From contig DATHAE010000134.1 of NCBI GenBank assembly GCA_035296805.1, forward strand, positions 1-47,739: a DNA stretch of 47,739 bases, in the 5' to 3' direction. The stretch's first letter is position 1. Each line of letters starts with the position of its first letter. The notes beneath the pieces are model-generated. The model searched no databases. It was not told the DNA's origin and was given only the letters and a program-made list of their open reading frames with translations. The position numbers and the translations under genes are program-made. Shown here piece by piece: positions 1-41,432 of the stretch. The DNA comes from Gaiellaceae bacterium. Lineage in GTDB: Bacteria; Actinomycetota; Thermoleophilia; Gaiellales; Gaiellaceae.

Positions 1-590
1 CGCGCGCGCAGCCCGTCGGGGAGCAGCCGCGCGTACGGGTCGAGCTGAGCCAGGAAGTCCTCGCGGATCGAGAGGACGACGCGCAGCAGCGGGTCGTCAC
101 GGAGCGCGCCGCCGAGGTCCTCGAAGAATCCGGGCCGGTCCTCCCAGCGGTCGGGGTACGCGGTGAAGAGCTCCTCGAACTGGTCGATCACGAGCGCGCG
201 CGGCGCGGGGAAGCCGTCGGAGGTGTCCGGATGCTCGCGCTCTTGCAGGTGGCCGCGGAGCGACGCAGCGCTCGATTCGCCGCCCGCGAGGTGCGAGACG
301 ACGGCGGCGACGAAGACGTTGCGGTCGGCGGCGACCTCCCCCTCGCGCAGGCCGACGACCCGTGCGACCGGGAGCACCTCGCACTCCTGGTCGTGCTCGA
401 GCCGGGCCACAACCGCGGCATTGAGCAGCGAGCTCTTGCCGGCGCCCGACGCCGCGTACAGCAGGACGATCGGGTTCGAGACGATCAGCGCGACGAGATC
501 ATGGATCTCGCGGTCGCGCCCGAAGAAGAAGCGCGCGTCGGCGCTCTCGAAGGGCCGCGGCCCGACGTAGGGGTTCTCGTCAGGCGGCAT
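1..590 (-). CDS. STAND-class P-loop NTPase, N-terminal 196 aa only (gene continues past the left edge of the window)
   Basis: Not in the ORF track because there is no stop inside the window. My own minus-strand translation from ATG 590-588 gives MPPDENPYVGPRPFESADARFFFGRDREIHDLVALIVSNPIVLLYAASGAGKSSLLNAAVV...RALVIDQFEELF...VLSIREDFLAQLDPY. Walker A (SGAGKS) lies at 432-452 and a Walker B-like hhhhDQFEE at 171-197. The N-terminal NPYxGxxxF...FFGRDxE signature is typical of STAND/NACHT-like NTPases. The ATG overlaps the 3' end of the upstream SIR2-like gene by 11 nt. Confidence 0.8.
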   Translation of the reverse strand, partial: MPPDENPYVGPRPFESADARFFFGRDREIHDLVALIVSNPIVLLYAASGAGKSSLLNAAVVARLEHDQECEVLPVARVVGLREGEVAADRNVFVAAVVSHLAGGESSAASLRGHLQEREHPDTSDGFPAPRALVIDQFEELFTAYPDRWEDRPGFFEDLGGALRDDPLLRVVLSIREDFLAQLDPYARLLPDGLRA

Positions 591-1647
591 GGGTCTCGGC
601 TGCGTGCTCGACCCATTTCTGGCGCAGCGTCTCCGCGAACTCGCTCGCGTCGCCCCAGTACACGATCACGCTCATCGCGTTGAAGTAGCGGCCGAGGTAG
701 GTGCGTGCCGTCTCGGAGTCGCGCGGCGGCAGTTGCACGGCGACGCTCAGGCGGCGCAGGCCCGGGGGTGAGGTGGCGACGAGGCCGCGGTGCAAGACGC
801 GGAAGTTGGCGTCGGCGAGGCTGTAGCCGAGGAAGAGCAGCGACGTGCTCGCGAGCGCGCTCTGGACCTGCAGCGGCAGCACGTTCTGGCGCCGCGAGAC
901 CGAGACGAGGAAGTCGAGGTAGTCGTCCTCGGTGAGCACGATCGACTCGGGCACGTCGAGCGTCCCGTGGAGGTGGTAAACGACGGGCTCGTCGACCGAC
1001 GGCACGAAACCGCCGGCGGCGTCGAACACGCTCGGAGTGCCGTCGAGGAAGTCGTTCCAGCGGCAGAGCTCGCGGTGCGGCGTCTTGCCCGCGCGGCGGA
1101 GCGCCTGGACCATGAAGTCGTCGTAGTTCGTCGTCACGAAGATGCGGATCGGAAGCTCCGCGAGCACCGCATGCGGCTCGCCCGGGCGGTCGAAGTCGGG
1201 CGGTCCGATCCCGCGCAGCTCGCTGCAGATCTTCTCCTTCGGCCACATCGGATCGCCGTTCACGCTCACGAACTGCGCCACGCGCGGCAGGTCCCAGTCG
1301 TCGTCCAGCGGGTACCCCTCCTCCTGCGCCCAGCGCCGCGCGACGTCGCCGCCGAGCGGGAGCGTCCCGGCGCACGCGCCGGCGCCGAGGAACGGCGTGC
1401 AGTGACCGCCGCCGACGCGCGCGAGCAGGCGTTGCCATTCGCGTGGCGTGATGTGCGCGTTCAGGGGAGGAACGTTCGCGGCGACAGCTTCGATTGTGCG
1501 CCCGCGACCGGTGCGTTGTCCAGCCTCGAATACGGTTCGGCCGGTGAAGGTGTTCTCCGTGGTCGGGAACCGGCCGCAGTTCGTCAAGTCCGCGCCGCTC
1601 TCGCTCGCGCTTCGCACCGCCGGGATCGAGGAGGTCGTGCTGCACAC
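580..1647 (-). CDS. SIR2-like (SIR2_2 / ThsA-type sirtuin-fold) protein, putative NAD-consuming effector
   Basis: ORF track 580..1647. Motifs are FLGAGAC (1372-1392), VTTNYD (1120-1137) and VYHLHGT (961-981). These match the Rossmann GAG, Asn/Asp and His positions of SIR2_2-family proteins. The conserved part begins near 1440. The only in-frame canonical starts upstream are TTG 1587, GTG 1617 and GTG 1647. All of them overlap the divergent wecB start (1544), so the 5' end is unresolved and the coordinates give the maximal ORF. Confidence 0.8.
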   Translation of the reverse strand: MCSTTSSIPAVRSASESGADLTNCGRFPTTENTFTGRTVFEAGQRTGRGRTIEAVAANVPPLNAHITPREWQRLLARVGGGHCTPFLGAGACAGTLPLGGDVARRWAQEEGYPLDDDWDLPRVAQFVSVNGDPMWPKEKICSELRGIGPPDFDRPGEPHAVLAELPIRIFVTTNYDDFMVQALRRAGKTPHRELCRWNDFLDGTPSVFDAAGGFVPSVDEPVVYHLHGTLDVPESIVLTEDDYLDFLVSVSRRQNVLPLQVQSALASTSLLFLGYSLADANFRVLHRGLVATSPPGLRRLSVAVQLPPRDSETARTYLGRYFNAMSVIVYWGDASEFAETLRQKWVEHAAETHAA

Positions 1648-2575
1648 GGGGCAGCACTGGGACCGCGAGATGTCGCACGTCTTCTTCGACGAGCTCGGCC
1701 TCGCCGAGCCGCGCTACCGCCTCGACCTGCACACGCGCGACGTGGACGCGATGCGAGCTCCGATCGGAGAGGCGGTCGCGCGGGAGCACCCCGACTGGCT
1801 GCTCGTGTACGGCGACACGAACTCGACCCGCGCCGGCGCCGAGGCCGCGGGCAAGGTGCCGGTCGCGCACGTCGAGGCAGGGCTGCGCAGCTTCGACCTC
1901 TCGATGCCCGAGGAGCACAACCGGATCGCCGTCGACCGGACGGCGGCGCTCCTCCTCTGCCCGGACGAACGGTCGGCGCGGCAGCTCGAGTCGGAGGGCG
2001 TACGCGGGCGCCGCGAGGTCGTCGGCGACGTGATGGCCGACGCGACGCGCGTCTTCGCACCGATTGCGCGCGAGCGGTCGTGCGTGCTCGACCGGCTCGG
2101 CCTCCGCCCCCGTGAGTACGTGCTGGCGACGATCCACCGCGAGGGGAACGTCACGACCGCCGATCGACTGAAGGCGATCGCACACGGGCTCGCGTCGCTC
2201 GAGAACCGCGTCGTCTTCCCCGCACACCCACGGACGCGCGCGGCCCTCGAGCGCCTCGGCCTCGACCTCCCGACGATCGAGCCGCTCGGCTACCTCGACT
2301 TCGCGGCGCTCGCGTCGCAGGCGAGGACGATCGTCACCGACTCGGGCGGGCTCCAGAAGGAGGCGTACTGGTACCGCGTCCCGTGCGTCACGGTGCGGTC
2401 CTCGACCGAGTGGGTCGATACCGTGGCGGCCGGCGCGAACGTCCTCGTCGAGCCGGACGAGATCTCGCCGGCGGTCACCGCGGCGCGGTTTCCGAAGGAC
2501 GTACCGCCGCTCTATGGCGACGGCCACGCGAGCGAGCGCGTCGCAGCCGCTCTGTACGCTACGCCGCCGTCATGA
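1544..2575 (+). CDS. wecB: UDP-N-acetylglucosamine 2-epimerase, non-hydrolysing (WecB/WbpI type)
   Basis: ORF 1448..2575 trimmed to GTG 1544 (VKVFSVVGNRPQFVKSAP...), which matches the canonical N-terminus of this family. Motifs HTGQH, HVEAGLRS and DSGGLQKEA are present. Stop TGA 2573-2575 overlaps the next ATG (ATGA). Confidence 0.9.
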   Translation: MKVFSVVGNRPQFVKSAPLSLALRTAGIEEVVLHTGQHWDREMSHVFFDELGLAEPRYRLDLHTRDVDAMRAPIGEAVAREHPDWLLVYGDTNSTRAGAEAAGKVPVAHVEAGLRSFDLSMPEEHNRIAVDRTAALLLCPDERSARQLESEGVRGRREVVGDVMADATRVFAPIARERSCVLDRLGLRPREYVLATIHREGNVTTADRLKAIAHGLASLENRVVFPAHPRTRAALERLGLDLPTIEPLGYLDFAALASQARTIVTDSGGLQKEAYWYRVPCVTVRSSTEWVDTVAAGANVLVEPDEISPAVTAARFPKDVPPLYGDGHASERVAAALYATPPS

Positions 2576-6479: not shown

Positions 6480-8084
6480 CTAGTGGGCGGGCTGTGAGTT
6501 CTTCGTCGCGAGCGCGAGCGTGTAGAGCGCGGGGATCGTCGTCGCGCCGAGCACCTTCACCTCGACGTACCAGCGGCCCGTCACCGGCACGGTGTAGGCG
6601 ATCCGCTCCTGCGCGCCGACCCGCGCCGACTGCGCCGCAAGCAGCGAGCGCGACGCGGTGACGCCCTCGACGCGCTGCGTACCGGGCCGCCACAGCGTCA
6701 TCTTCATCCCGATCCGGCCGGGCCGCGTCAGCCGCGCAAAGACCCGCTGACCCTTGCGCAGCTGCACCGAGTAGACGTCGATCCGGTCGTCCCAGTAGTC
6801 GACGGTCGCGACGATCGAGCGGGGCGGGCCGAACGCGCGCGCCCACCCGCCCGCCTCGTCGTTGGGCTCGAAGCCGTCCCGGTGCGGGAGCGCCGACCCG
6901 GCGGTGAGGCGGTTGAGCGCCGCGAGCACGTTCAGGCTCCCCCACCCGGAGAGCGCGTCGCGGCCGTTGGCGCAGTTCGGACAGCCGTTGGAGGGGTTGA
7001 CGTCGTCGGCGCTCCGCTCGAGCAGCCACGCCACCTGCTCCGGCTTCAGCGCCGGGTTCTGGCCGATGAGGAGCGCGGCCGCAGCCGCCACCTGCGGCGC
7101 CGAGAACGAGGTGCCGATCGCGTTCTGGAACTCAAACGGCCCGCAGTCGGAGTAGGGGCCCGCGACACAACCGGCCGTGGCGCGTTGGCGCGGAATCGTC
7201 GAGTAGATCGCGTCCCCGGGCGCGGTGACGTCGTTGTAGATCGAGTCGCGGTTCGAGTACTCGGGGATCGACCCATCCTGGCGCAGCGCGCTGACACCGA
7301 TCACGTGCGGCAGCGCCGCCGGGTAGTTTGCGTTGTTCCACGGCGTCGCCGGCGACTGCGAGCCGTTCCCCACCGCCGCGACGACGACTGCGCCGCGCGC
7401 GTAGGCGTAGTTGACCGCGGCCTGCTCGAGCGGCGAGTACGTGTCGGCCTTCGGGTTCTGCGGGTCGCGCACGCCGCCGAGGCTGAGGTTGATCACGCGC
7501 GCGCCCTGGTCGACGGCCCAGCGGATTGCCTCCACCTCGCCCTGCAGCGAGACCGAGCCGTCGGGCTGCACCACCTTCGCCACGACGAGTCGCGCGTTGA
7601 CGCCGATTCCGGCGATCCCCTCGCCGTTGAAGGGGTTGGCAGCGATCTCGCCCGCCACGAAGGTGCCGTGGCCCTCGGTGTCGTCGTAGGGCGAGCCGCC
7701 GACGAAGCTCTTCGCCGCGACGACGCGACCGAAGAACTCCGGGTGGCCGCCGTCGATCCCGGAGTCGATCACGGCCACGCGCGTCGTGAAGAGCTTCGGC
7801 GGCTCGGCCCAGAACTCCCACGCGTGGTCGCGCTGGAGGTACCACTGCTTCGCGGCGAGCGGCTCCGTGTTGTCGAACGCGAGGCGCCGCTTGCCGTCGA
7901 GCCGCTCCACGAACGCCGCCCCCGGCACACGCGGACGCGTGGGCGATTCGAGGACGACGGCCTTCCCGGGCACGATCGTCCTCGCGCCGGGAAGCGAGGG
8001 GACGCCGACGGCCCAGGTGCCGGCAGCGGCACTGCTCGGCGCGCCGAGCGCCACAACGGCGACTGCGAGCGCGACCCGTCTCAT
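6480..8084 (-). CDS. Secreted subtilisin-like serine protease (peptidase S8) with a C-terminal pre-peptidase/PPC-like domain
   Basis: Giant ORF 6480..10073 trimmed to ATG 8084 (MRRVALAVAVVALGAPSSAAA, a signal peptide). Catalytic triad motifs are VAVIDSGID (Asp), HGTFVAGEIA (His) and GTSFSAPQVAAAAAL (Ser). The ATG overlaps the SpoIID gene stop (ATGA). Confidence 0.9.
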   Translation of the reverse strand: MRRVALAVAVVALGAPSSAAAGTWAVGVPSLPGARTIVPGKAVVLESPTRPRVPGAAFVERLDGKRRLAFDNTEPLAAKQWYLQRDHAWEFWAEPPKLFTTRVAVIDSGIDGGHPEFFGRVVAAKSFVGGSPYDDTEGHGTFVAGEIAANPFNGEGIAGIGVNARLVVAKVVQPDGSVSLQGEVEAIRWAVDQGARVINLSLGGVRDPQNPKADTYSPLEQAAVNYAYARGAVVVAAVGNGSQSPATPWNNANYPAALPHVIGVSALRQDGSIPEYSNRDSIYNDVTAPGDAIYSTIPRQRATAGCVAGPYSDCGPFEFQNAIGTSFSAPQVAAAAALLIGQNPALKPEQVAWLLERSADDVNPSNGCPNCANGRDALSGWGSLNVLAALNRLTAGSALPHRDGFEPNDEAGGWARAFGPPRSIVATVDYWDDRIDVYSVQLRKGQRVFARLTRPGRIGMKMTLWRPGTQRVEGVTASRSLLAAQSARVGAQERIAYTVPVTGRWYVEVKVLGATTIPALYTLALATKNSQPAH

Positions 8085-9829
8085 CTCGGCAGCACCGACG
8101 CGGACAAGCCCGGCACCAACCCTCGTCCGGGTGCCGCGCGGACGCGGTAGACGGACCCGGCCGCGTTGGCGACGGCGAGCGAGAACGAGCCCGAGGTGTC
8201 GGTCACGCCGGAGGCGACGGTCCTCCACGTGGTGCCGGTCTGCCGCTGGAGCTGCACCGCCGCGCGCGGGAGCGCGGGCCGGATGTTGCCGGTCACCGAC
8301 CCTGCACCGAGCTGCGCGGTCACACGCGGGGCGACGCCGACCTTCACGACCGCAGCGCGGACGGCGGCGGTCGCGAGCCTGTACTCGGTCGTCACCCGAG
8401 GCCTGACGATCGCAGCGAACGAGCCGTTCGCGGCGGGCGCGACGGCGCGGACCGTCTGCCACAGCCCTCCGACGGGGCGCGCCTCGAGCATCGCCGCGCC
8501 GACGCTGCGCGCGATGCCCTTGACCGAGCCGGCGCCGCCGTAGGTGACGGGCGCCTTCGGCGGCGCGAGCGACAGCCAGCCGACGGTGAACCACGTCGAG
8601 TCCAGCCCGAGCAGGGTCCGGAGCTGCGAGCCGGTGAACGACCTCTCGCCGAGCGGCGTCACGGCCGCGACGCGCTGCACGCGCGCGGACGGGCCGAGCG
8701 TCGTGCGCAGGTCGAGCACCGCCGGCACGCTCAGGCGCTTCGCGACCTGCGCCGCGTCGAACACGACCGGGCCCCAGTTGTGATGGGGCGAGGCGTCGTC
8801 GAAGGGGTCCGGGACCGAGACGAGGTACGGGATCGAGCGACCGGTCGCCTCGAGCGCGGAGGCGGTCCGGCCGCCCGAGGTCGAGAAGAAGTACGTCGTG
8901 GCGACCTTGCCGTCGTACAGCACGACCTCGCCCGCGGTCGCGTCGATCGCGGCGCTCGCCGACGCGGCCTCGGCCGCCATCCCGCCGTAGACCTGGCTGC
9001 GCACGTCGCTGTAGAGGTCGTACGTGCGGCCCTTCGCCAGGTTGGCGAGCGCGTACGACCGCGCCGCGACCGCCTGCGCCTTCAGTGCCTCGGGCGGCCA
9101 CGCCGACGGCATCTCGGACGGGACGACTCCCTTCAGGTACGCCTCGACGGCGAGCGAGTTCACGACCACGAGCTTCCTGTTCTCGACGGAGACGACGAGG
9201 TTGCCGCGGTACTGCTTGCCGCCGACGGTGAGGACGCCGGCGACCGGCGAGAACGTCACCGGCGGCGCGAGCGTCAGGTTCTTGTACTTCAGTGCCGTGG
9301 TGAGCGGGATCTTCGCGGCGGGGAGGTCGACGGTCACGCCGTCTGCGCCCGTGGCGCGCCACGCCTTCGTTGAGCCGAGCACCAACGTCTTCGCGCCCTC
9401 GAGCAGGAGGACGCGGACGCGCGCGACCGGCGCGGGCCCGAGCTTCGTGGAACGGTAGTAGTGGGCGAGGATCCGGTCGTACGTCCAGCCGTGCTGCGCG
9501 AATCCGTTGGCGCCCCACTGGCTCATCCCGAGGCCGTGGCCCCAGCCGTGCCCGCTGAGGACGATCGCGGTGCGCGCGGCGACGGTCGCGGTGGTCGTCG
9601 TCGTTGTCGTGGTGCCGGTGGTCGTCGTAGTGGTGGCGGTTGTCGTCCTCGCGGTCGCCGTCGTCGCCGGCCTCGTCGTCGCGACGGTCGTCGTCCCCGT
9701 CGTTCCCGTCGTCGTCGTCGTCGACGTCGTCGCGCCGGCCCCCGCCGGGGTCGTCGCGAGGAACGCGGAGGCGGCGCCTGCGAGCGCGAGCGCGGCGGCG
9801 GCCGCTGCGAGCAGGGCACGCGTCAGCAC
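8081..9829 (-). CDS. SpoIID/LytB-domain protein (cell-wall glycan-strand processing family), secreted, with a Thr-rich N-terminal linker
   Basis: ORF 8081..10918 trimmed to GTG 9829 (VLTRALLAAAAAALALAGAASA, a signal peptide). SpoIID-type motifs are YLKGVVPSEMP, EALKAQAVAARSYAL, YFFSTSGGRTAS and PHHNWGP. The C-terminal ~170 aa are unassigned. Confidence 0.85.
   Translation of the reverse strand: MLTRALLAAAAAALALAGAASAFLATTPAGAGATTSTTTTTGTTGTTTVATTRPATTATARTTTATTTTTTGTTTTTTTTATVAARTAIVLSGHGWGHGLGMSQWGANGFAQHGWTYDRILAHYYRSTKLGPAPVARVRVLLLEGAKTLVLGSTKAWRATGADGVTVDLPAAKIPLTTALKYKNLTLAPPVTFSPVAGVLTVGGKQYRGNLVVSVENRKLVVVNSLAVEAYLKGVVPSEMPSAWPPEALKAQAVAARSYALANLAKGRTYDLYSDVRSQVYGGMAAEAASASAAIDATAGEVVLYDGKVATTYFFSTSGGRTASALEATGRSIPYLVSVPDPFDDASPHHNWGPVVFDAAQVAKRLSVPAVLDLRTTLGPSARVQRVAAVTPLGERSFTGSQLRTLLGLDSTWFTVGWLSLAPPKAPVTYGGAGSVKGIARSVGAAMLEARPVGGLWQTVRAVAPAANGSFAAIVRPRVTTEYRLATAAVRAAVVKVGVAPRVTAQLGAGSVTGNIRPALPRAAVQLQRQTGTTWRTVASGVTDTSGSFSLAVANAAGSVYRVRAAPGRGLVPGLSASVLPR
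9584..9730 (-). repeat. Low-complexity Thr-codon tract (about 49 codons, mostly ACN) inside the SpoIID-like gene
   Basis: Translates to TTSTTTTTGTTGTTTVATTRPATTATARTTTATTTTTTGTTTTTTTTAT. On the + strand it appears as runs of GTC/GTG/GGT triplets. Confidence 0.8.
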
Positions 9830-9846
9830 CGGGCCAAGGTAGCGAA

Positions 9847-9874
9847 AGGCCGCTACGACCGTTTTTCGCGGCCT
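9847..9874. promoter_or_regulatory. 7-bp perfect inverted repeat (AGGCCGC-N14-GCGGCCT) in the 66-nt divergent spoIID-like / kinase intergenic region
   Basis: Read directly: 9847-9853 aggccgc pairs with 9868-9874 gcggcct, and the loop contains gttttt. Its position between two divergent start codons (9829 and 9896) suggests an operator or 5'-UTR structure. Confidence 0.3.
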
Positions 9875-9895
9875 GGAACCGGCTACCGTCCCCGC

Positions 9896-11356
9896 GTGCT
9901 CCCCGACCGGTACACCGACGTCGAGCCGATCGCGAAGGGCGGCATGGGCGAGGTCTTCCGCGCGCGCGACACCGAGCTCGGGCGGCAGGTGGCGGTGAAG
10001 GTGCTGTTCGCGAACTTCGCGCGCGACGACGCGCTGCGGCAGCGGTTCCAGCGCGAGGCCCTGGCAGCGGCAAGGCTCTCGGGCGAGCCCAACATCGTCA
10101 CGATCTTCGACGTCGGCGAGTACGACTCGCGCCCGTTCATCGTCATGGAGTACCTCCGCGGCGGGTCGCTGGCGGATCGCGCACGCGGCGCGCCGACGCC
10201 GCCCGCGCAGGTGCTCGAATGGCTCTCCGATGCCGCCTCTGCGCTCGACGCGGCGCATGCCGCCGGAGTCGTGCACCGCGACGTCAAGCCGGCGAACCTG
10301 CTCCTCGACGATCGGGGGCACGTACGGGTCGCGGACTTCGGGATCGCAAGCGCCGCCGGGCTCGACTCGTTCACGCAGACGGGGACGGTGCTCGGCACCG
10401 CCGGCTACCTCGCGCCCGAGCAGGCGCGGGGCGAGCGCGCGACGGCGGCGACCGATCTCTACGCGCTCGGGGTCGTCGCGTTCGAGCTGCTGACGGGCCG
10501 CCGCCCCTTCCGGGCCGACACGGCGACCGCGGAGGCCGCGGCGCACATCCACGCGCCGGTGCCGTCGCTGCACGAGGCGAACCCGTCGCTGCCGCCCGAG
10601 CTCGACCCCGTCTTCGCGCGCGCCCTCGCCAAGGACCCGGCTGCGCGTTACGCGAGCTCGGCCGAGTTCGTCGCCGACCTTCGGGGTGCGCTGGACGACG
10701 CGGCGGGCGCGACGAGCGTTCTCGCGGCGGCGCCGACGCGCCCACTGACGGCGCCGACGCGACGCGACGCACCGGACGAACGGCGCGTCGCGCGAGGCGG
10801 GCGCCGGTGGTTGATCCCGGCCCTGCTGGCCTTGATGATCGCCGGCGGCATCCTGGCCGCGGTGCTTGCGACCCGCGACGGCGACAACACCGCGGCGACG
10901 ACGGCCGCAACGACCCACCCACCGGCGACGACGTTCGTCAAGACGGTCACCCAGCCGGGCACGACGCTCGAGCGGACGGTCACGGCGCAGCCTCCACCGC
11001 CGCCGACGACCCAGGCCGAGCCGACGACGACCGAAGCGACGACGACCGAAGCGACGACGACGAACGAGACCGCACCCGCCGGTCAGAGCGGGTCCGACCT
11101 CAACGACGCGGGGTTCGCGAGCATGCAGGCGGGCGACTACGAATCGGCGCTACCGCTCCTCGAGCAGGCCGTCACAAAGCTCCAGGGGACGGGTTCGCTG
11201 ACGGAGGCATACGCCGACTACAACCTCGCCTACACGCGGTACGCGCTCGGCAGCTGCGAAGGCGTCGAGGACCTGCTGAAGAACTCGGAGCGCATCCAGG
11301 GTCACCGCGAGGAGATCAAGGACCTCCAACGGCAGGCGCACAAGACTTGCAAATGA
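9896..11356 (+). CDS. Hanks-type Ser/Thr protein kinase, single-pass membrane protein with a Thr/Pro-rich linker and small Cys-containing TPR-like ectodomain
   Basis: ORF 9461..11356 trimmed to GTG 9896 (VLPDRYTDVEPIAKGGMGEVFRA). Motifs are VAVK, HRDVKPANLLL, DFG and GTAGYLAPE. A TM segment (WLIPALLALMIAGGILAAVLA) follows, with no PASTA repeats. Confidence 0.9.
   Translation: MLPDRYTDVEPIAKGGMGEVFRARDTELGRQVAVKVLFANFARDDALRQRFQREALAAARLSGEPNIVTIFDVGEYDSRPFIVMEYLRGGSLADRARGAPTPPAQVLEWLSDAASALDAAHAAGVVHRDVKPANLLLDDRGHVRVADFGIASAAGLDSFTQTGTVLGTAGYLAPEQARGERATAATDLYALGVVAFELLTGRRPFRADTATAEAAAHIHAPVPSLHEANPSLPPELDPVFARALAKDPAARYASSAEFVADLRGALDDAAGATSVLAAAPTRPLTAPTRRDAPDERRVARGGRRWLIPALLALMIAGGILAAVLATRDGDNTAATTAATTHPPATTFVKTVTQPGTTLERTVTAQPPPPPTTQAEPTTTEATTTEATTTNETAPAGQSGSDLNDAGFASMQAGDYESALPLLEQAVTKLQGTGSLTEAYADYNLAYTRYALGSCEGVEDLLKNSERIQGHREEIKDLQRQAHKTCK
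10880..11075 (+). repeat. Thr/Pro-rich low-complexity tract including a direct TTTEA-TTTEA codon repeat
   Basis: Translates to NTAATTAATTHPPATT...PPPPPTTQAEPTTTEATTTEATTTNET. The 15-nt unit acgacgaccgaagcg occurs twice in tandem near 11030-11060. Confidence 0.7.
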
Positions 11357-37537: not shown

Positions 37538-38242
37538 GTGGACGCGCTGGCACGCCTCGCCTCAGAGCCGGAGCGCGCCGCCCTCTTCCTCGACATCGAC
37601 GGCGTCCTCGCGCCGATCGTCGCCGACCCCGACGACGCGCGCGTGCCCGACGAGACGCGGGCCGTCCTGCGTGAGTTGGCGACGCGCTACGCACTCGTCG
37701 CGTGCGTCACGGGCCGCGCCTCCGAGGTCGCGCGCGCGATCGTCGGCGTCCCGGAGGTGACCTACGTCGGCGAGCACGGCCTGGAGCTGGAGCCGGAGGC
37801 GGCGGAGTGGGGCAAGCGGATCCGTGCGTTCGCGGCCCGCGCCCGGTGGCCGGCCGAGGACAAGCCGCTCACGGCCGCGTTCCACTACCGCACCGCCGAG
37901 CGGCCCGCCGAGGCGCGGGAGGTGCTCGAGGAGGTGGCCGCCGAGGCGCTCGGCGAGGGCTTCCGGACGCGCTGGGGGCGGATGGTGCTCGAGGTTCTGC
38001 CGCCGGTCGACGCGTCGAAAGGGACCGCGGTGCGCCGGCTGCTGGAGCGGGACGGACTGGGGCGCGCGCTCTACGCCGGCGACGACACGACCGACCTCGA
38101 CGGCTTCGCGGCGCTCGACGGCCTCGAGGCCGCGGTGCGGGTCGCGATCGCCTCGCCGGAGGGCCCGACGGAGCTCGGCGAGCGCGCCGACGTCGTCCTG
38201 GGCTCGCCTGCGGCCCTGGTCGAGTTGCTACGGCAACTGTAG
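37538..38242 (+). CDS. otsB: Trehalose-6-phosphate phosphatase (HAD-IIB)
   Basis: ORF track 37538..38242 with a GTG start. Motifs are LFLDIDGVLAP (DxDG), VTGR and YAGDDTTDLDGF. Confidence 0.85.
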   Translation: MDALARLASEPERAALFLDIDGVLAPIVADPDDARVPDETRAVLRELATRYALVACVTGRASEVARAIVGVPEVTYVGEHGLELEPEAAEWGKRIRAFAARARWPAEDKPLTAAFHYRTAERPAEAREVLEEVAAEALGEGFRTRWGRMVLEVLPPVDASKGTAVRRLLERDGLGRALYAGDDTTDLDGFAALDGLEAAVRVAIASPEGPTELGERADVVLGSPAALVELLRQL

Positions 38243-39637
38243 AGCGTTCGCGTAGATCTCCTCGCCGAGCGAGCCGAGGCGCCGCGAGTCCGTCCAGATC
38301 GGATGGGCGACCCCGGCCGCGGCCGCGACTCCCGCGTAGTCGCCGTACTGGAAGGGAGAGGCGGCGCGCGCCGTCTCGTCGGAGAAGGCGTGGGCGGCCC
38401 GCCGCGGCAACGTCCACGTCGTGCCGCCGTCGGCCGACGACGAGCAGGTGTAGCGCGCGCGCCGGCGTGTGGGGTCGCCTCTCGTGTCGTACCAACAGGC
38501 CCAGAGGCGGCCCGTCGTCGCGTCCACGGTCGAGGCCGGGAGGAACTGGTCGGAGGGCGCGCGCCCGTCGGGCGGATTGACGCGGCGGCGGGTTCCGAGC
38601 GCGCTCAGCGTCGCGGCGTCGAACGACCTCACCCAGACGTCCTGGCCGGTTCCGCCGGGCGTGCGCGCGGCGTAGGTCACGTGGACGCGGCCGTGGGCGG
38701 CGTCGGCGGTCACCTGCGGCGCCGGCGCCGCGCACCGCGTCGCCTGCGCGGGGATCGCCGAGCCGGCGAACGGGCACGACGCGCCCGTGAAGGGCAGCGT
38801 CGCGATCGGGAGGTCGCGCCGGAAGTGATCGCCGCCGTCGTCCGAGCGGTCGAGGAGCACGCGCCCGTCCTCGGTCAGCCACGCGACGTACAGCGTCCCG
38901 TCGTCGCCGACGGCGAGGCTCGCGTAGGTCTGGTAGGTCCGGCGTGCGCCGCTGACGCGGACGGCGCGCGACCACGTCGCACCGTCGTCGTCGCTGTGTG
39001 AGACCACCACTTCGTACGACGCCGTCGGCGCGAACAGGCGGCTCCAGGCGAGGTAGAGGCGCCCGGCGTATGGGCTCGCGGCGGACACGTCGACGGCCAG
39101 CGCGTTCTTGTCGCTCATGGCAGTCGCCCCCTCGATCCGCAGGAGGCGGGACGACCACGGCGCCCCGGCCCGACGCCGAGTCGCGAGGGCCAGCGAGATG
39201 CGCTCGGACTGCCCGTCGCACGAGCCGGCGAGGAACGCGTAGAACTGGCGGCCGTCCGGACCGATCGCCACCGCGGGGTCGCCGTAGGAGCAGGTGCCGC
39301 GCGGCGGCGGCAGCGGGCGCGACGTCCACGTCCTCCCGCCGTTGGCCGAGCCGTAGACGCGACTCGCCGACGCGTACGACGCCGACCCGGCCACGAGCAC
39401 GGCCGGGCGGGAGGGGTCGACCGCGATCGCGACCTCGGCCTGCGCGCCCCTCGCGCGCGAGACGTTGACGTCGCCGCGCACGCCGCGGCCGCGAACGCGC
39501 ACCGCCGCGCCCGAGGCCGCCACGCGGTGCGGCGCGAGCGACCGCCCCGCCGGACGCCGCTCGGCGCGCTCGACGGCGACGGGCAACGCGAGAGCCGCCG
39601 ACGCGGCGAGCGCCACCGGTGCGAGCCGCCGCGTCAC
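38228..39637 (-). CDS. Secreted BNR-repeat (sialidase/exo-alpha-sialidase-like beta-propeller) protein
   Basis: ORF track 38228..39637 with a GTG start and a signal peptide. BNR/Asp-box motifs are SANGGRTW, SDDDGATW, SDDGGDHF and SADGGTTW. The start overlaps the response-regulator stop (GTGA). Confidence 0.8.
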   Translation of the reverse strand: MTRRLAPVALAASAALALPVAVERAERRPAGRSLAPHRVAASGAAVRVRGRGVRGDVNVSRARGAQAEVAIAVDPSRPAVLVAGSASYASASRVYGSANGGRTWTSRPLPPPRGTCSYGDPAVAIGPDGRQFYAFLAGSCDGQSERISLALATRRRAGAPWSSRLLRIEGATAMSDKNALAVDVSAASPYAGRLYLAWSRLFAPTASYEVVVSHSDDDGATWSRAVRVSGARRTYQTYASLAVGDDGTLYVAWLTEDGRVLLDRSDDGGDHFRRDLPIATLPFTGASCPFAGSAIPAQATRCAAPAPQVTADAAHGRVHVTYAARTPGGTGQDVWVRSFDAATLSALGTRRRVNPPDGRAPSDQFLPASTVDATTGRLWACWYDTRGDPTRRRARYTCSSSADGGTTWTLPRRAAHAFSDETARAASPFQYGDYAGVAAAAGVAHPIWTDSRRLGSLGEEIYANALQLP

Positions 39638-40347
39638 AGGCGCAGCCGCTCGCGCAGCTGGCGCGACTGGCGGCGCGCCACGTCGAGCTCCGTCCGCTCG
39701 GCGTCGGCGAGCGCGAGCCTGATCCGGTCCGGGCCGGCGCGCTTCACGGCCGCCACCTTCGCGAGGTTGACGAGGTGCGAGCGGTGGATGCGCGCGAAGC
39801 GATGACCCGGCAGCTTCTCCTCCAGCTCGCCGAGCGATGCGGTGCAGAGGTAGGAGCGGTCGTAGGTGTGGACGCGGCTGTAGTCGCCGTCGGCCTCCAC
39901 GTAGTGGATCGCCTCGTAGTCGACGAGCTCTGTGCGGCCGCCGGCGACGACCGGGATCTTCTCCACCGGCGGCGCCTGCGGCGTCACCCGCTCGGCCAGC
40001 CGCTCGAGCACGCGCGCCAGACGCTCGGGATCGACCGGCTTCAGCAGGTAGTCGAACGCCTCGACGGCGAACGCGTCGACGGCGTACTCCGGATGTGCCG
40101 TCACGAACACGACCGCGGGCGGCTCGCGTTGCTCGCGCACGAGCGGAGCCGCCTCGAGCCCGGTCAGGCCCGGCATCTGCACGTCGAGGAAGACCACGTC
40201 GTAGTGGACGGCCTTCGCGAGCGCGAGCGCCTCCGCCGCTCCGGCAGCCTCGCCGACGACCTCGACGCCTTCGTGCGCGTCGAGCAGGTAGCGCAGCTCC
40301 GATCGCGCCGGCGCCTCGTCGTCGACGATGAGGGCGCTGATGGTCAC
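39634..40347 (-). CDS. LytR/AlgR-family response regulator (receiver + LytTR DNA-binding domain)
   Basis: ORF 39634..41127 trimmed to GTG 40347 (VTISALIVDDEAPARSEL...VVFLDVQMPG...). LytTR block FARIHRSHLVNL. GTGA overlap with the kinase stop. Confidence 0.9.
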   Translation of the reverse strand: MTISALIVDDEAPARSELRYLLDAHEGVEVVGEAAGAAEALALAKAVHYDVVFLDVQMPGLTGLEAAPLVREQREPPAVVFVTAHPEYAVDAFAVEAFDYLLKPVDPERLARVLERLAERVTPQAPPVEKIPVVAGGRTELVDYEAIHYVEADGDYSRVHTYDRSYLCTASLGELEEKLPGHRFARIHRSHLVNLAKVAAVKRAGPDRIRLALADAERTELDVARRQSRQLRERLRL

Positions 40348-41432
40348 GCCGCCGGCACCTCGAGGCGCACGACCGTCCCGAACGGGAAGGAGCGCAGCTT
40401 CACGCCCTCGCCGTAGAACGCCGTCAGCCGGTGGTGCACATTTGCGAGCCCGAGCCCCGTCCCTGCCGACTCGCCCTCCGACACACCGGGCTCGAGCACG
40501 CGCTCGAGCGCCTCGCGGGCGATCCCGCGCCCGTCGTCGCGGACGGTGACACGCAGGCGGCCCCGGCGGACGCGGGCGCGCACGAGCAGGTGCAGGGGCC
40601 GCTCGGTCTTGCCGTGCTTGACCGCGTTCTCGACCAGCGGCTGGACGAGGAACGGCGGCAGCCGCACCGCGCGCGCCTCGGGCGACGCGACGACGGTGAC
40701 CTCGAGCTGCGAGCCGAAGCGCGCCTGCTCGAGCGCGAGGTAGCTCTGCACGTGGCGCAGCTCCTCGTCGAGCGTGACGAAGTCGCCCGGGCGCGACAGC
40801 TTCCACCGTGTGTAGTCGGCGAATGCCCGCACGAGGTCGCGCGCGCGGTCGGGATCGGTGCGGATCAGCGACGCGATCGTGTTCAGCGCGTTGAAGACGA
40901 AGTGCGGCTCCATCTGCGCCTGCATCGCGGTCGTGGTCGCCGTCGCGAGCTGGGAGAGCTGGAGCTGCGCCGAGAGCTGGTCGCCGAGCCGCTCGAGCGT
41001 CGCCACCGTCTCCTCGTGGAGCGGCGACCCGTCGGTCGCGTAGGCGACGACGGCCCCGGCGACGCCGTCCGAGAGCCGCAGCGGGACGACGGCCGCGGCA
41101 CCGAGCGGGCACGCCGGGTGGCCGCACTCGACGCGCAGCGCAAGCGGCGCGAGCAGCGGGCGGTCCTGAGCGAGCGCCTCGAACACCGGGCGGATGGCGG
41201 CGTCGCCGGCGGCGTGGTGGTCGGCGCCGGCGCCGACGAACGCCAGCACGTGCCGCCGGTCGGTGACCGCGACCGCGCCGACGCCGAGCTTCTCGAACAG
41301 CTCGTAGGCGACGGTGCGCGCGGCGCTCTCGGACAACCCGCGGCGGAGCTCCGGAAGCGTGGCCGCCAGAAGCTCGAGCGTCGCCGTCTCGCGCCTCGCG
41401 CGCCGGTGTCTCGGCATGATCGGATCATGCAC
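40344..41432 (-). CDS. LytS/BtsS-type sensor histidine kinase lacking the membrane 5TM receptor domain (GAF-like + His_kinase + HATPase_c)
   Basis: ORF track 40344..41432 (GTG); an alternative ATG lies at 41417. Motifs are H-box EPHFVFNALNTIASL, N-box LVENAVKHG, and G-boxes DDGRGI and GTGLGLANV. No hydrophobic segments are present. Confidence 0.88.
   Translation of the reverse strand: MHDPIMPRHRRARRETATLELLAATLPELRRGLSESAARTVAYELFEKLGVGAVAVTDRRHVLAFVGAGADHHAAGDAAIRPVFEALAQDRPLLAPLALRVECGHPACPLGAAAVVPLRLSDGVAGAVVAYATDGSPLHEETVATLERLGDQLSAQLQLSQLATATTTAMQAQMEPHFVFNALNTIASLIRTDPDRARDLVRAFADYTRWKLSRPGDFVTLDEELRHVQSYLALEQARFGSQLEVTVVASPEARAVRLPPFLVQPLVENAVKHGKTERPLHLLVRARVRRGRLRVTVRDDGRGIAREALERVLEPGVSEGESAGTGLGLANVHHRLTAFYGEGVKLRSFPFGTVVRLEVPAA
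41414..41430. promoter_or_regulatory. 17-nt perfect palindrome gcatgatc-g-gatcatgc containing both divergent start codons (kinase ATG 41417 and Nudix ATG 41427) and two GATC sites
   Basis: Verified base by base (41414-41421 pairs with 41423-41430, centre 41422). It is locally AT-rich relative to the surroundings. Confidence 0.6.

What the first reader, a model, noticed from the sequence alone, without database searches (positions are those of the whole stretch)
1..1647. Split SIR2 effector + STAND NTPase gene pair, a candidate anti-phage module not matching a named system
Seen in sequence:
- Two minus-strand genes overlap by 11 nt (SIR2-like stop TGA 582-580, next ATG 590-588), so they form one translationally coupled unit.
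- The upstream product carries the SIR2_2 signature with all pocket motifs intact (FLGAGAC, VTTNYD, VYHLHGT).
- The downstream product opens with NPYVGPRPF-x6-FFFGRDRE, then Walker A GAGKSS and a hhhhDQFEE Walker B. This is the hallmark N-terminal core of STAND/NACHT-like NTPases.

Established knowledge:
- SIR2-like domains act as NAD+-depleting effectors in Thoeris ThsA, DSR1/DSR2, SIR2-HerA and SIR2-associated short pAgo systems. They also occur as fused N-terminal effectors of some Avs/STAND proteins.
- STAND NTPases are the sensor/switch of Avs-type immunity.

Inference: here the effector and the STAND switch are separate polypeptides. I do not recognise this two-gene architecture as one of the named systems. 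The pair abuts a surface-polysaccharide operon, a typical variable neighbourhood.

Caveat: only 196 aa of the NTPase are visible. Its C-terminal sensor (WD40/TPR/other) and any further partner genes lie left of the window.
Basis: partly seen in the sequence, partly recalled or inferred. Interest (0 to 1): 0.8.

Follow-up and report, generated by a model that had tools for sequence, protein, structure and literature searches.

The report
SIR2 enzyme plus membrane-spanning STAND receptor
The window's left edge carries a widespread but undescribed gene pair: a SIR2-type enzyme of the kind that destroys NAD+, coupled to a switch protein that probably spans the membrane and senses the cell wall or exterior, so it looks like an outward-looking bacterial immune receptor.

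Summary
A SIR2_2 gene (580-1587, minus strand) overlaps by 11 nt the first 196 codons of a STAND NTPase of the Pfam nSTAND1 clade (590-1).

The pairing is not chance:
- All 80 best genome loci holding this SIR2 subfamily, from more than 10 bacterial phyla and two archaeal lineages, have an nSTAND1 gene directly downstream.
- 48 of the 80 have overlapping stop and start codons.
- The distance matrices of the two proteins correlate (r = 0.58).

A metagenome contig 98.5% identical to the window supplies the missing part. The NTPase there is 949 aa: NTPase module, Arg-rich stretch, one strongly hydrophobic helix, beta-propeller, beta-sandwich and a degenerate NlpC/P60-like domain.

Of the 120 closest relatives, 111 have the same single helix with a positive-inside charge bias. 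After it they carry PASTA, PG_binding, M23, NlpC/P60, lysozyme, periplasmic-binding, FGE-sulfatase, WD40 or TPR domains.

So this is not an Avs-type cytoplasmic sensor. It is most likely a single-pass transmembrane STAND receptor that activates a separate ThsA-like SIR2 NADase.

PADLOC-DB v2 has no model for the NTPase, and I found no paper describing the pair. Its function is inferred, not shown. I rate it a new variant of a known kind, interest 0.72.

The parts
580..1587 (-). SIR2_2-family gene (standalone, ThsA-like SIR2). The start is uncertain: TTG 1587 as called on near-identical contigs, the conserved core from 1464, and the outermost ORF start at GTG 1647. Stop is TGA 582-580.
   Evidence: Pfam SIR2_2 E = 1.9e-26. 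More than 3600 homologues of about 290 aa. Alignment A1 has invariant G27/G29, N113, D115 and H166 in core numbering. AF2 model has pLDDT 84.9. Foldseek gives SeThsA 7uxt with TMq 0.72, then KomC, DSR2 and EfAvs5.
1..590 (-). First 196 codons of an nSTAND1-clade STAND NTPase, cut by the window edge. The full length is 949 aa on contig L114, which is 98.5% identical in DNA.
   Evidence: Pfam nSTAND1 E = 4.9e-32. L086 and L114 extend it. P0249 is 97% identical over the 196 aa.
580..590 (-). 11-nt overlap between the SIR2 stop (TGA 582-580) and the NTPase start (ATG 590-588), suggesting translational coupling.
   Evidence: Sequence. The same 11-nt overlap occurs in L001-L005 and L114. Stop and start codons overlap in 48 of 80 genome loci.
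429..446 (-). Walker A motif GAGKSS (Lys52).
   Evidence: Sequence. G49, G51, K52 and S54 are invariant in A3.
171..194 (-). Walker B region LVIDQFEE (D136, Q137, E139, E140).
   Evidence: Sequence. These residues are invariant in A3.
1372..1392 (-). SIR2 Gly-rich NAD-binding loop FLGAGAC.
   Evidence: Sequence. Invariant F25 to A30 in A1.
1120..1134 (-). SIR2 TTNYD motif (catalytic Asn and Asp).
   Evidence: Sequence. Invariant T111, N113, Y114 and D115 in A1.
964..975 (-). SIR2 HLHG motif (catalytic His166 in core numbering, His227 counted from GTG 1647).
   Evidence: Sequence. Invariant H164, H166 and G167 in A1.
1465..1647 (-). Non-conserved 5' extension of the SIR2 ORF. It overlaps the start of the divergent WecB-like gene (about 1544, plus strand). 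It probably holds the real start or leader and the shared divergent promoter region.

Best explanation
This is a two-gene conflict or immunity module, sometimes three genes. In it a single-pass transmembrane STAND (nSTAND1) receptor controls a separately encoded ThsA-like SIR2 NADase.

Proposed mechanism:
1. The NTPase module sits in the cytoplasm.
2. An Arg-rich stretch and one hydrophobic helix carry the chain across the membrane.
3. The variable C-terminal domains lie outside and bind a cue at the cell wall or surface. In the window's lineage these are a beta-propeller, a CARDB-like beta-sandwich and an NlpC/P60-like domain that has probably lost its catalytic His.
4. Ligand-driven clustering lets the NTPase modules oligomerise in a nucleotide-dependent way.
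5. The oligomer recruits and assembles the co-translated SIR2 into its active multimer.
6. SIR2 hydrolyses NAD+ and stops growth or kills the cell, which limits spread of a phage or another attacker.

Shown here:
- family membership of both proteins;
- intact catalytic motifs;
- strict, deep synteny and co-evolution;
- a hydrophobic helix with positive-inside bias;
- extracytoplasmic-type domain families after that helix.

Inferred only: NADase activity, physical SIR2-NTPase contact, outside-in signalling, and the nature of the trigger.
For: Family assignment.

SIR2:
- Invariant catalytic residues.
- A confident model (pLDDT 84.9). Its best structural matches are defence NADases that work as oligomers or filaments: ThsA, KomC, DSR2 and EfAvs5.

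Synteny:
- 80 of 80 genome loci have the pair.
- 48 have overlapping stop and start codons and 20 more have gaps of 0-43 nt.
- 15 of 18 NTPase-centred loci carry SIR2, even at 24-27% NTPase identity.
- Mirror-tree r = 0.58, with 0 of 2000 permutations reaching it.
- A protein with both domains exists (P0360).
- Some relatives carry TIR in place of SIR2 (P0150, P0277).

Topology:
- The window-lineage NTPase reads RRSARRRRRG-LLAAALVAATAAAVAVAAVAISA.
- 111 of 120 closest relatives have one helix near aa 400 with Kyte-Doolittle score >= 1.8. Net charge is +5.5 before it and -0.05 after it. The NTPase modules average a maximum of 1.55.
- Domains after the helix include PASTA, PG_binding_1, Peptidase_M23, NlpC/P60, Phage_lysozyme, Peptidase_M14, Peripla_BP_6, CARDB, PD40, PQQ/BamB-like and FGE-sulfatase.
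- The AF2 model of P0242 shows the NTPase, a long helix, a low-confidence linker, a propeller and a C-terminal alpha+beta domain. Apaf-1 is the best whole-chain match.

Accessory character:
- Flanks differ even among close relatives.
- Some genomes hold several copies with different sensors.
- Integrase, transposase, toxin-antitoxin or patatin genes are occasional neighbours.
Against: - There is no experimental datum for any member.
- Topology rests on hydropathy, charge bias and domain types, not on a dedicated predictor or an assay.
- Canonical WD40 and TPR repeats are mostly cytoplasmic folds.
- A minority of partners lack the helix altogether: TPR forms in L031, L049, L057 and Nonomuraea L115. 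Outside sensing is therefore not universal.
- Only some of the 8 gene-called contexts contain defence-like or mobile neighbours, and others are ordinary metabolic surroundings.
- No relatives turned up in IMG/VR viral contigs or the phage collection, apart from two weak Streptococcus phage hits (E about 1e-6) over the C-terminal ~60% of the SIR2 query. That says nothing about phage as the trigger.
- The 80 loci are the best 80 of 269, found through two exact peptide patterns, so the most divergent members are under-sampled.
Confidence: 0.6

Rival explanations
1. Classical Avs-like cytoplasmic sensor. The STAND protein binds a phage protein inside the cell through its repeat domain. The hydrophobic helix is only a membrane tether, or is not membrane-inserted at all.
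For: - STAND, repeat domains and SIR2 are the parts list of Avs5, and EfAvs5 is among the structural matches of the SIR2 model.
- Helix-less TPR variants exist, in which sensing must be cytoplasmic.
- WD40 and TPR domains are typical cytoplasmic sensors.
Against: - 111 of 120 relatives have the helix with a strong positive-inside bias.
- The domains after it include PASTA, PG_binding_1, M23, NlpC/P60, GH24 lysozyme and periplasmic-binding folds, which act outside the cytoplasm.
- PADLOC Avs models do not match.
- The nSTAND1 profile finds no solved STAND, including Avs5, in the PDB at E <= 10.
Confidence: 0.1
2. An envelope-surveillance, cell-death or dormancy module that is not primarily antiviral. 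It would sense cell-wall damage, muropeptides, competitors' hydrolases, antibiotics or non-kin cells. This matches the programmed-death systems of multicellular or aggregating prokaryotes proposed by Kaur, Burroughs, Iyer and Aravind.
For: - The sensor repertoire is directed at peptidoglycan and the surface.
- Carriers are largely filamentous or aggregating lineages: Anaerolineae, Actinomycetota, anammox Planctomycetota, Methanoperedens and Methanosarcina.
- nSTAND1 was defined in that framework.
- Contexts are often not defence islands.
Against: - It shares all mechanistic steps with the best explanation and differs only in the trigger.
- I did not test lifestyle enrichment statistically.
- All characterised SIR2_2 effectors are anti-phage (established knowledge).
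Confidence: 0.22
3. Regulatory signalling. SIR2 acts as a protein deacylase or ADP-ribosyltransferase on specific targets, under a receptor analogous to PASTA kinases, and tunes cell-wall homeostasis rather than killing the cell.
For: - The architecture (outside sensor, transmembrane helix, cytoplasmic enzyme-controlling module) parallels PASTA Ser/Thr kinases.
- In the window the pair sits next to envelope sugar genes.
- Sirtuins in general can deacylate or ADP-ribosylate (established knowledge).
Against: - The SIR2 belongs to the SIR2_2/ThsA-like branch, whose solved members are NADases.
- The patchy, multi-copy, cross-domain distribution with swapped sensors and TIR alternatives is typical of conflict systems, not housekeeping.
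- The adjacency to WecB is not conserved beyond the 98%-identical contigs.
Confidence: 0.06
4. Reversed logic. The extracytoplasmic hydrolase domains (lysozyme, M23, NlpC/P60, M14) are the effectors, acting in autolysis or attack. SIR2 and the NTPase then form the cytoplasmic sensor or regulator, for example reading NAD+ status.
For: - Several partners carry enzymatic peptidoglycan-hydrolase families.
- Aravind-type systems often place effectors in variable C-terminal regions.
Against: - Most partners carry binding repeats (WD40, TPR, FGE-sulfatase, PBP, PASTA), not enzymes.
- In the window's clade the NlpC/P60-like domain has the canonical His replaced by Ala, Thr or Tyr.
- SIR2 keeps a complete catalytic set.
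Confidence: 0.05

Closest known systems
Avs5 / AVAST type 5 (SIR2-STAND), e.g. EfAvs5 (PDB 9jap)
   Same: A SIR2 NADase effector is governed by a STAND NTPase with a C-terminal sensor. The SIR2 folds are similar (Foldseek E = 9e-11). Activation by oligomerisation or filamentation is the obvious model (PMC11897194, listed).
   Different: - Avs5 is one cytoplasmic polypeptide, whereas here SIR2 is a separate, translationally coupled gene.
- Here the NTPase belongs to the nSTAND1 clade and shows no detectable sequence relation to solved STANDs.
- It carries a transmembrane helix and extracytoplasmic-type sensor domains.
- No PADLOC Avs model matches.
Thoeris ThsA (SIR2-SLOG)
   Same: It is the best sequence and structure match for the SIR2: PADLOC ThsA E = 1.7e-18, PDB 7uxt E = 6e-18, TMq 0.72. 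The same catalytic Asn, Asp and His are present.
   Different: There is no SLOG ligand-binding domain, since the protein is only about 290 aa. The constant partner is an nSTAND1 NTPase, not a ThsB TIR protein.
KomC of the KomBC (Kongming) complex; SIR2-HerA; DSR1/DSR2
   Same: These are standalone or fused SIR2_2 NADases switched on inside a larger assembly by a partner (PDB 9v0g and 8zsf, DSR2 entries).
   Different: The partner proteins (KomB, HerA, the DSR C-terminal domains) are absent here. The only NCBIfam hit is a sub-threshold Dsr2 match (E = 0.098).
nSTAND1 conflict systems (Kaur, Iyer, Burroughs, Aravind, eLife 2021, PMC8195603) and DGR-diversified nSTAND1-FGE sensors (PMC10907252)
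   Same: The NTPase clade is the same. Sensors are variable (WD40, TPR, FGE-sulfatase) and effectors are swappable, including TIR.
   Different: - Those descriptions couple effectors through shared adaptor domains (EAD, Death-like) or fuse them. Here neither protein has room for an adaptor.
- In the two eLife papers I searched, SIR2 is absent from one and is mentioned once in the other for a different system.
- The DGR paper does not mention SIR2 and describes its own nSTAND1 targets as likely cytoplasmic; none of the three discusses a transmembrane nSTAND1 with outside sensors.
Functional analogies only: Toll-like receptors and PASTA Ser/Thr kinases (PknB-type)
   Same: An outside ligand-binding repeat or peptidoglycan-binding domain, a single transmembrane helix, and a cytoplasmic signalling module activated by clustering. 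Some relatives even have TIR-nSTAND1-TM-propeller (P0277).
   Different: There is no homology of the signalling module. This is an analogy from established knowledge, not a tested relationship.

Membership tests
SIR2_2 (PF13289), defence-type SIR2 NADases | Profile match above the curated threshold | tested here: met
   93.3 bits against a cut-off of 24.5, E = 1.9e-26.
SIR2_2 (PF13289), defence-type SIR2 NADases | Gly-rich NAD loop plus catalytic Asn/Asp (TTNYD) and His (HLHG) | tested here: met
   All are present in the window and invariant in 22 diverse homologues.
SIR2_2 (PF13289), defence-type SIR2 NADases | Rossmann-type SIR2 fold resembling ThsA/DSR2 | tested here: met
   AF2 pLDDT 84.9. 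Foldseek gives 7uxt at E = 2.4e-13 and TMq 0.72, followed by KomC, DSR2 and Avs5.
SIR2_2 (PF13289), defence-type SIR2 NADases | NAD+ hydrolase activity | not testable with these tools
   Needs an enzyme assay.
nSTAND1 (PF20703) STAND NTPases | Profile match above threshold, including the N-terminal PYxGxxxF...FFGR motif | tested here: met
   112.4 bits against 27.1 on the 196-aa fragment, and 136.9 bits for the full-length proxy P0249.
nSTAND1 (PF20703) STAND NTPases | Intact Walker A and Walker B | tested here: met
   GAGKSS and hhhhDQFEE are present. G49, G51, K52, D136, Q137, E139 and E140 are invariant in A3.
nSTAND1 (PF20703) STAND NTPases | C-terminal repeat or sensor region on the same polypeptide | tested here: met
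   Met by proxy only, since the region lies outside the window. L114/P0249, 98.5% identical in DNA, has a propeller, a beta-sandwich and an NlpC/P60-like tail.
Avs5 / AVAST type 5 | SIR2 fused N-terminally to the STAND NTPase in one protein | tested here: not met
   The genes are separate with an 11-nt overlap, and separate in 80 of 80 loci.
Avs5 / AVAST type 5 | NTPase recognisably homologous to Avs-family STANDs | tested here: not met
   No PADLOC Avs hit. The nSTAND1 profile finds no solved STAND, including 9jap, at E <= 10.
Avs5 / AVAST type 5 | Soluble cytoplasmic sensor | tested here: not met
   A transmembrane helix with positive-inside bias occurs in the window lineage and in 111 of 120 relatives.
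Thoeris | ThsA with a SLOG domain plus a ThsB TIR partner | tested here: not met
   The SIR2 is about 290 aa with no second domain. The constant neighbour is nSTAND1.
SIR2-HerA / DSR1 / DSR2 / SIR2-pAgo | HerA, a DSR C-terminal domain or a short pAgo/APAZ partner | tested here: not met
   Neighbours are nSTAND1 only. PADLOC Dsr1 scores E = 0.0034 on the SIR2 core, and NCBIfam Dsr2 scores 10.6 bits against a cut-off of 1400.
EAD-coupled conflict systems (Kaur et al. 2020/2021) | Matching effector-associated adaptor domains on effector and NTPase | tested here: not met
   The NTPase Pfam match starts at residue 7. The SIR2 core starts about 8 aa after the homologues' start codons and ends at the C-terminus. 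No extra domain appears in either.

The most novel reading that the evidence does not exclude
Prokaryotes possess a large, unrecognised class of transmembrane NLR-like receptors: nSTAND1-TM-sensor proteins. These would survey the cell wall or exterior, for example for phage adsorption, virion-borne or competitor peptidoglycan hydrolases, or muropeptides. They would signal inwards to a trans-encoded SIR2 (or a TIR) NADase. That amounts to outside-in innate immune sensing which combines the logic of Toll-like receptors with an NLR switch. In about 12% of loci an additional conserved four-helix membrane protein appears as a third component.
Probability: 0.4. Interest if true: 0.85.

Novelty: new variant of a known kind. 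Interest (0 to 1): 0.72.

Why it matters
All characterised bacterial STAND immune receptors (Avs1-21, bNACHT) are soluble proteins that recognise phage proteins inside the cell. A family that places the sensor outside the membrane would show that bacteria can also couple surface or cell-wall surveillance to an NLR-type switch and NAD+ depletion. That would allow a response before or at genome entry, or a response to non-viral attackers.

The family is large: at least 1012 clusters at 50% identity with E <= 1e-30. It spans many phyla and archaea, and it is concentrated in poorly studied soil and sediment lineages. It has no solved structure for the NTPase clade.

It also gives a natural system for asking how a STAND oligomer activates an effector supplied in trans. 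Two cultured carriers make it experimentally reachable: Ensifer adhaerens M8 plasmid pB (the transmembrane form) and Nonomuraea gerenzanensis (the soluble TPR form).

Tried and rejected
- Looking up the 355-aa ORF from GTG 1647 in the contig index found nothing. The called product starts at TTG 1587.
- The protein search with the 196-aa NTPase fragment returned almost only short metagenomic fragments and told little about architecture. The search with the full-length L002 homologue was the useful one.
- PDB sequence searches for the NTPase, with a single sequence and with a profile, found no relative.
- NCBIfam gave no meaningful name for either protein.
- PADLOC gave only P-loop noise (mad8) for the NTPase and nothing for the accessory membrane protein.
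- IMG/VR and the phage collection hold no close relative of the SIR2, so I dropped a prophage-borne origin.
- No supplementary tables were held for the 2026 STAND survey, so I could not check whether this clade is among its 589.
- Literature searches for nSTAND1, SIR2 with STAND as a two-gene system, SIR2-STAND/Avs5 and transmembrane STAND found no description of this pair.
- I considered and rejected membership in Thoeris, SIR2-HerA, DSR, Avs5 and EAD-coupled systems (see the membership test).
- A weak PycTM hit of the accessory membrane protein (E = 0.0027, below threshold, one of three copies scanned against Pfam) is treated as a lead only.
- A whole-chain Foldseek search of the NTPase model was dominated by WD40 proteins. 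Apart from Apaf-1 at the top, it added little.
Full report
**What is in the window**

On the minus strand an ORF runs from at most GTG 1647 to TGA 582-580. A second ORF starts at ATG 590-588 and runs off the left edge after 196 codons, so the two overlap by 11 nt.

Pfam places the first product in SIR2_2 (E = 1.9e-26). It places the second in nSTAND1, 'Novel STAND NTPase 1' (E = 4.9e-32), with only sub-threshold hits to generic AAA models.

In PADLOC the SIR2 matches only the SIR2 part of ThsA (1.7e-18), with weaker hits to PDC-S25, LmuA and Dsr1. The NTPase matches nothing beyond a P-loop-level hit.

The window is 72.5% G+C. The genes to the right are a WecB-type UDP-GlcNAc 2-epimerase, a UDP-sugar dehydrogenase, a Gfo/Idh/MocA oxidoreductase and a hexapeptide acyltransferase. 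This confirms the 'surface-polysaccharide' neighbourhood.

**Start of the SIR2 gene**

Homologues are 285-300 aa, and their N-termini align with the codon at 1464-1462, which is CTG here. The only canonical in-frame starts upstream are TTG 1587 and GTG 1647. Both overlap the divergent epimerase gene, which starts at about 1544. Gene callers on two 98%-identical contigs chose TTG 1587. I therefore give 580-1587 as the gene and mark the start as uncertain.

**The pair is a conserved unit**

The SIR2 subfamily is large. More than 3600 hits appeared in the word-indexed search. The exhaustive search of 1.84 billion representatives found 5911, 2603 and 1012 clusters at E <= 1e-3, 1e-10 and 1e-30.

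A scan of 185,579 species genomes found 269 relatives, of which the best 80 were kept. They come from:
- Solirubrobacteraceae and other Actinomycetota;
- Anaerolineae and other Chloroflexota;
- Acidobacteriota, Verrucomicrobiota and anammox Planctomycetota;
- Desulfobacterota, KSB1, Rhodothermales and Proteobacteria;
- the archaea Methanoperedens and Methanosarcinaceae.

In all 80 an nSTAND1 NTPase follows on the same strand.
- In 48 the stop and start codons overlap, most often by 4, 8, 11 or 14 nt.
- In 20 the gap is 0-43 nt.
- In 12 the gap is larger. In at least 9 of those it is filled by a second SIR2 paralogue.

Starting instead from the NTPase, 15 of 18 metagenome loci with enough upstream sequence carry a SIR2, including NTPases only 24-27% identical to the query. 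Pairwise distances of the two proteins across 76 loci correlate (r = 0.58; 0 of 2000 permutations as high). One protein, P0360, contains both domains, and some relatives carry TIR instead. Chance adjacency and pseudogenisation are excluded.

**The part of the NTPase that the window lacks**

Contig L114 is 98.5% identical to window 1-1704. It carries the same SIR2, the same 11-nt overlap and a complete 949-aa NTPase, P0249, which is 97% identical to the window's 196 residues.

After the NTPase module, at about residue 390, comes RRSARRRRR followed by some 23 hydrophobic residues. An AlphaFold model of the homologue P0242 has mean pLDDT 81. It shows the NTPase and winged-helix region (1-370), a long helix (372-412), a low-confidence linker, a beta-propeller (about 459-760), a beta-sandwich and a C-terminal alpha+beta domain. 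Apaf-1 is the best whole-chain match.

Relatives of that tail score as CARDB and NlpC/P60. In the window's clade the Cys is kept, but the canonical His is replaced by Ala, Thr or Tyr. This suggests a binding module rather than a hydrolase, which is an inference.

**Topology**

Among the 120 closest full-length relatives, 111 have exactly one segment near residue 400 with a 19-residue Kyte-Doolittle mean of at least 1.8 (median 2.45). Three more are borderline. Net charge in the 15 residues before the segment is +5.5 on average, against -0.05 after it. The NTPase modules themselves average a maximum of 1.55. The same pattern holds in the genome loci.

The domains that follow the helix are largely families known to work outside the cytoplasm:
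- PASTA (P0357), PG_binding_1, Peptidase_M23, NlpC/P60 and GH24 Phage_lysozyme (L087, P0302, P0307);
- Peptidase_M14 (P0306), Peripla_BP_6, CARDB and the InlB-type B-repeat;
- PD40, a PQQ/BamB-like propeller (Ensifer), HemolysinCabind and FGE-sulfatase;
- many WD40 propellers and some TPR arrays.

Several TPR partners have no helix: L031, L049, L057 and Nonomuraea. Both soluble and membrane-spanning versions therefore exist. An ATP-dependent module must be cytoplasmic. Together with the charge bias and the domain repertoire, this makes an N-in, C-out single-pass topology the best reading. I estimate it at about 0.85. It has not been shown experimentally or with a dedicated predictor.

**The SIR2 effector**

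Alignment of 22 homologues sharing 54-83% identity shows invariant F25-A30 (the Gly-rich loop), T111, N113, Y114, D115, H164, H166 and G167. The AF2 model has pLDDT 84.9 and pTM 0.86. It matches SeThsA (TMq 0.72), KomC of the KomBC helical complex, DSR2 and the EfAvs5 SIR2-STAND filament, all at E <= 1e-10. Sequence searches of the PDB give the same order.

All of these are NADases that become active on assembly into oligomers or filaments (PDB titles; PMC11897194; otherwise established knowledge). The protein has no second domain. The NTPase has no N-terminal extension either, because its Pfam match starts at residue 7. The EAD-type adaptor coupling described for related conflict systems therefore does not apply. 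Contact must be direct, and coupled translation would supply roughly equimolar amounts (inference).

**Further components seen in relatives**

- A conserved protein of about 190-230 aa with roughly four hydrophobic helices lies just downstream of the NTPase in L114. Its motifs are G..G.LVH..RS...YVGNR.L.WSW and SP.GF...L.GLFSE. In 11 other distinct loci, including the archaeal L057, it lies next to a SIR2-nSTAND1 module, in most of them immediately upstream of the SIR2. It has no Pfam or PADLOC family, and one copy gives a sub-threshold PycTM hit.
- The second SIR2 paralogue often has a degenerate Gly loop and lacks the catalytic Asn, reading TTAYDD or TTGYDD.
- Some loci carry two modules (L089, L112), or a patatin gene directly after the NTPase (L088).

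**Genomic context**

Contexts differ even between close relatives; L002 and the window share no flanking genes. They range from ordinary metabolic surroundings (L087, L111, L113) to toxin-antitoxin, transposase, integrase or patatin neighbourhoods (L088, L112). Several MAGs carry two or more copies. No relative occurs in IMG/VR, and only weak partial hits occur in phage genomes. The picture is of an accessory, horizontally mobile module. I did not measure defence-island enrichment.

**Comparison with what is known**

The closest named system is Avs5 (SIR2-STAND). However, three of its defining features fail here: fusion, Avs-type NTPase and a soluble sensor.

Thoeris, SIR2-HerA, DSR and SIR2-pAgo fail on their partners.

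The NTPase clade was named by Kaur et al. 2021 and appears as a DGR target. Neither those papers, nor Kaur et al. 2020 (no mention of SIR2), nor the 2026 STAND survey text, nor the Avs5 paper whose text I searched describe a SIR2 partner in trans or a transmembrane nSTAND1. PADLOC-DB v2 has no model for it.

My literature access is limited to open-access text, and I could not run DefenseFinder. Prior description therefore cannot be fully excluded.

**Verdict**

The main addition is that the switch is most likely a membrane-spanning receptor with an outward-facing sensor.

The best explanation is an outside-in STAND receptor that activates a trans-encoded SIR2 NADase (confidence 0.6). The main open question is the trigger: phage, envelope damage or non-kin cells. 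I class it as a new variant of a known kind, with interest 0.72.

Noticed in passing
window 1465-1647 (minus) versus about 1544 onward (plus): The only canonical SIR2 starts (TTG 1587, GTG 1647) overlap the 5' end of the divergent WecB-like gene by 44-104 nt. The conserved SIR2 core begins at a CTG (1464). This may reflect a non-canonical or leaderless start, or a lineage-specific N-terminal extension.
   Followed up: partly
L114:4021-4518 (left of the window by homology); also L002:1708-2400, L088:9406-9996, L112:14720-15412, L019, L057, L061, L071, L010: A conserved membrane protein of about 190-230 aa with roughly four helices and no known family accompanies the SIR2-nSTAND1 pair in about 12 of roughly 100 loci. 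It usually lies just upstream of SIR2, but downstream of the NTPase in the window's lineage. One copy gives a sub-threshold PycTM hit (E = 0.0027).
   Followed up: partly
L034, L035, L047, L060, L065, L070, L075, L077, L078 (between SIR2 and the NTPase): A tandem second SIR2 paralogue is present. It often has a degenerate Gly loop (CTPILGPETPRG) and has lost the catalytic Asn (TTAYDD or TTGYDD). This suggests an active/inactive SIR2 hetero-oligomer.
   Followed up: partly
P0360 (770 aa); P0365, P0369, P0380, P0417, P0439, P0475, P0480: P0360 has nSTAND1 at the N-terminus and SIR2 at the C-terminus, with no transmembrane helix, so SIR2 occupies the sensor position. Several other long proteins (about 780-1055 aa) end in this SIR2. 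I did not examine their N-terminal parts.
   Followed up: partly
L089:10001-19027 and L112:10001-20005: Two SIR2 + nSTAND1-WD40 modules lie on one contig: convergent in L089, tandem in L112 directly after a tyrosine-recombinase gene. L088 has a patatin gene 4 nt after the NTPase, with PIN/MazE/PemK toxin-antitoxin genes and a DDE transposase nearby.
   Followed up: no
L116 (Ensifer adhaerens M8 plasmid pB, 1599189-1600076 and downstream) and L115 (Nonomuraea gerenzanensis record NZ_LT559118.1, 854049-854903 and downstream): Two cultured organisms carry the pair. Ensifer has an nSTAND1-TM-PQQ/BamB-like propeller protein (1289 aa) on a conjugative megaplasmid. Nonomuraea has a soluble nSTAND1-TPR protein (545 aa). 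Both are candidates for experiments.
   Followed up: partly
window 7054-7144 (+): ARAGORN calls a 91-nt tRNA-Gly(GCC), which is unusually long. Rfam's tRNA model does not reach its gathering score anywhere in the window, so this is probably a false call or an aberrant gene.
   Followed up: partly
window 8084-11149 (-): A very large ORF (about 1000 aa) has a SpoIID (lytic transglycosylase-like) domain only at residues 657-745. The rest has no Pfam match.
   Followed up: no
window 38228-41432 (-): A secreted protein with repeated SxDxGxTW (Asp-box/BNR-like) motifs (38228-39637) lies next to what look, by eye, like a LytTR-type response regulator and a LytS-like histidine kinase (about 39634-41432). 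I did not run profile searches on these.
   Followed up: no
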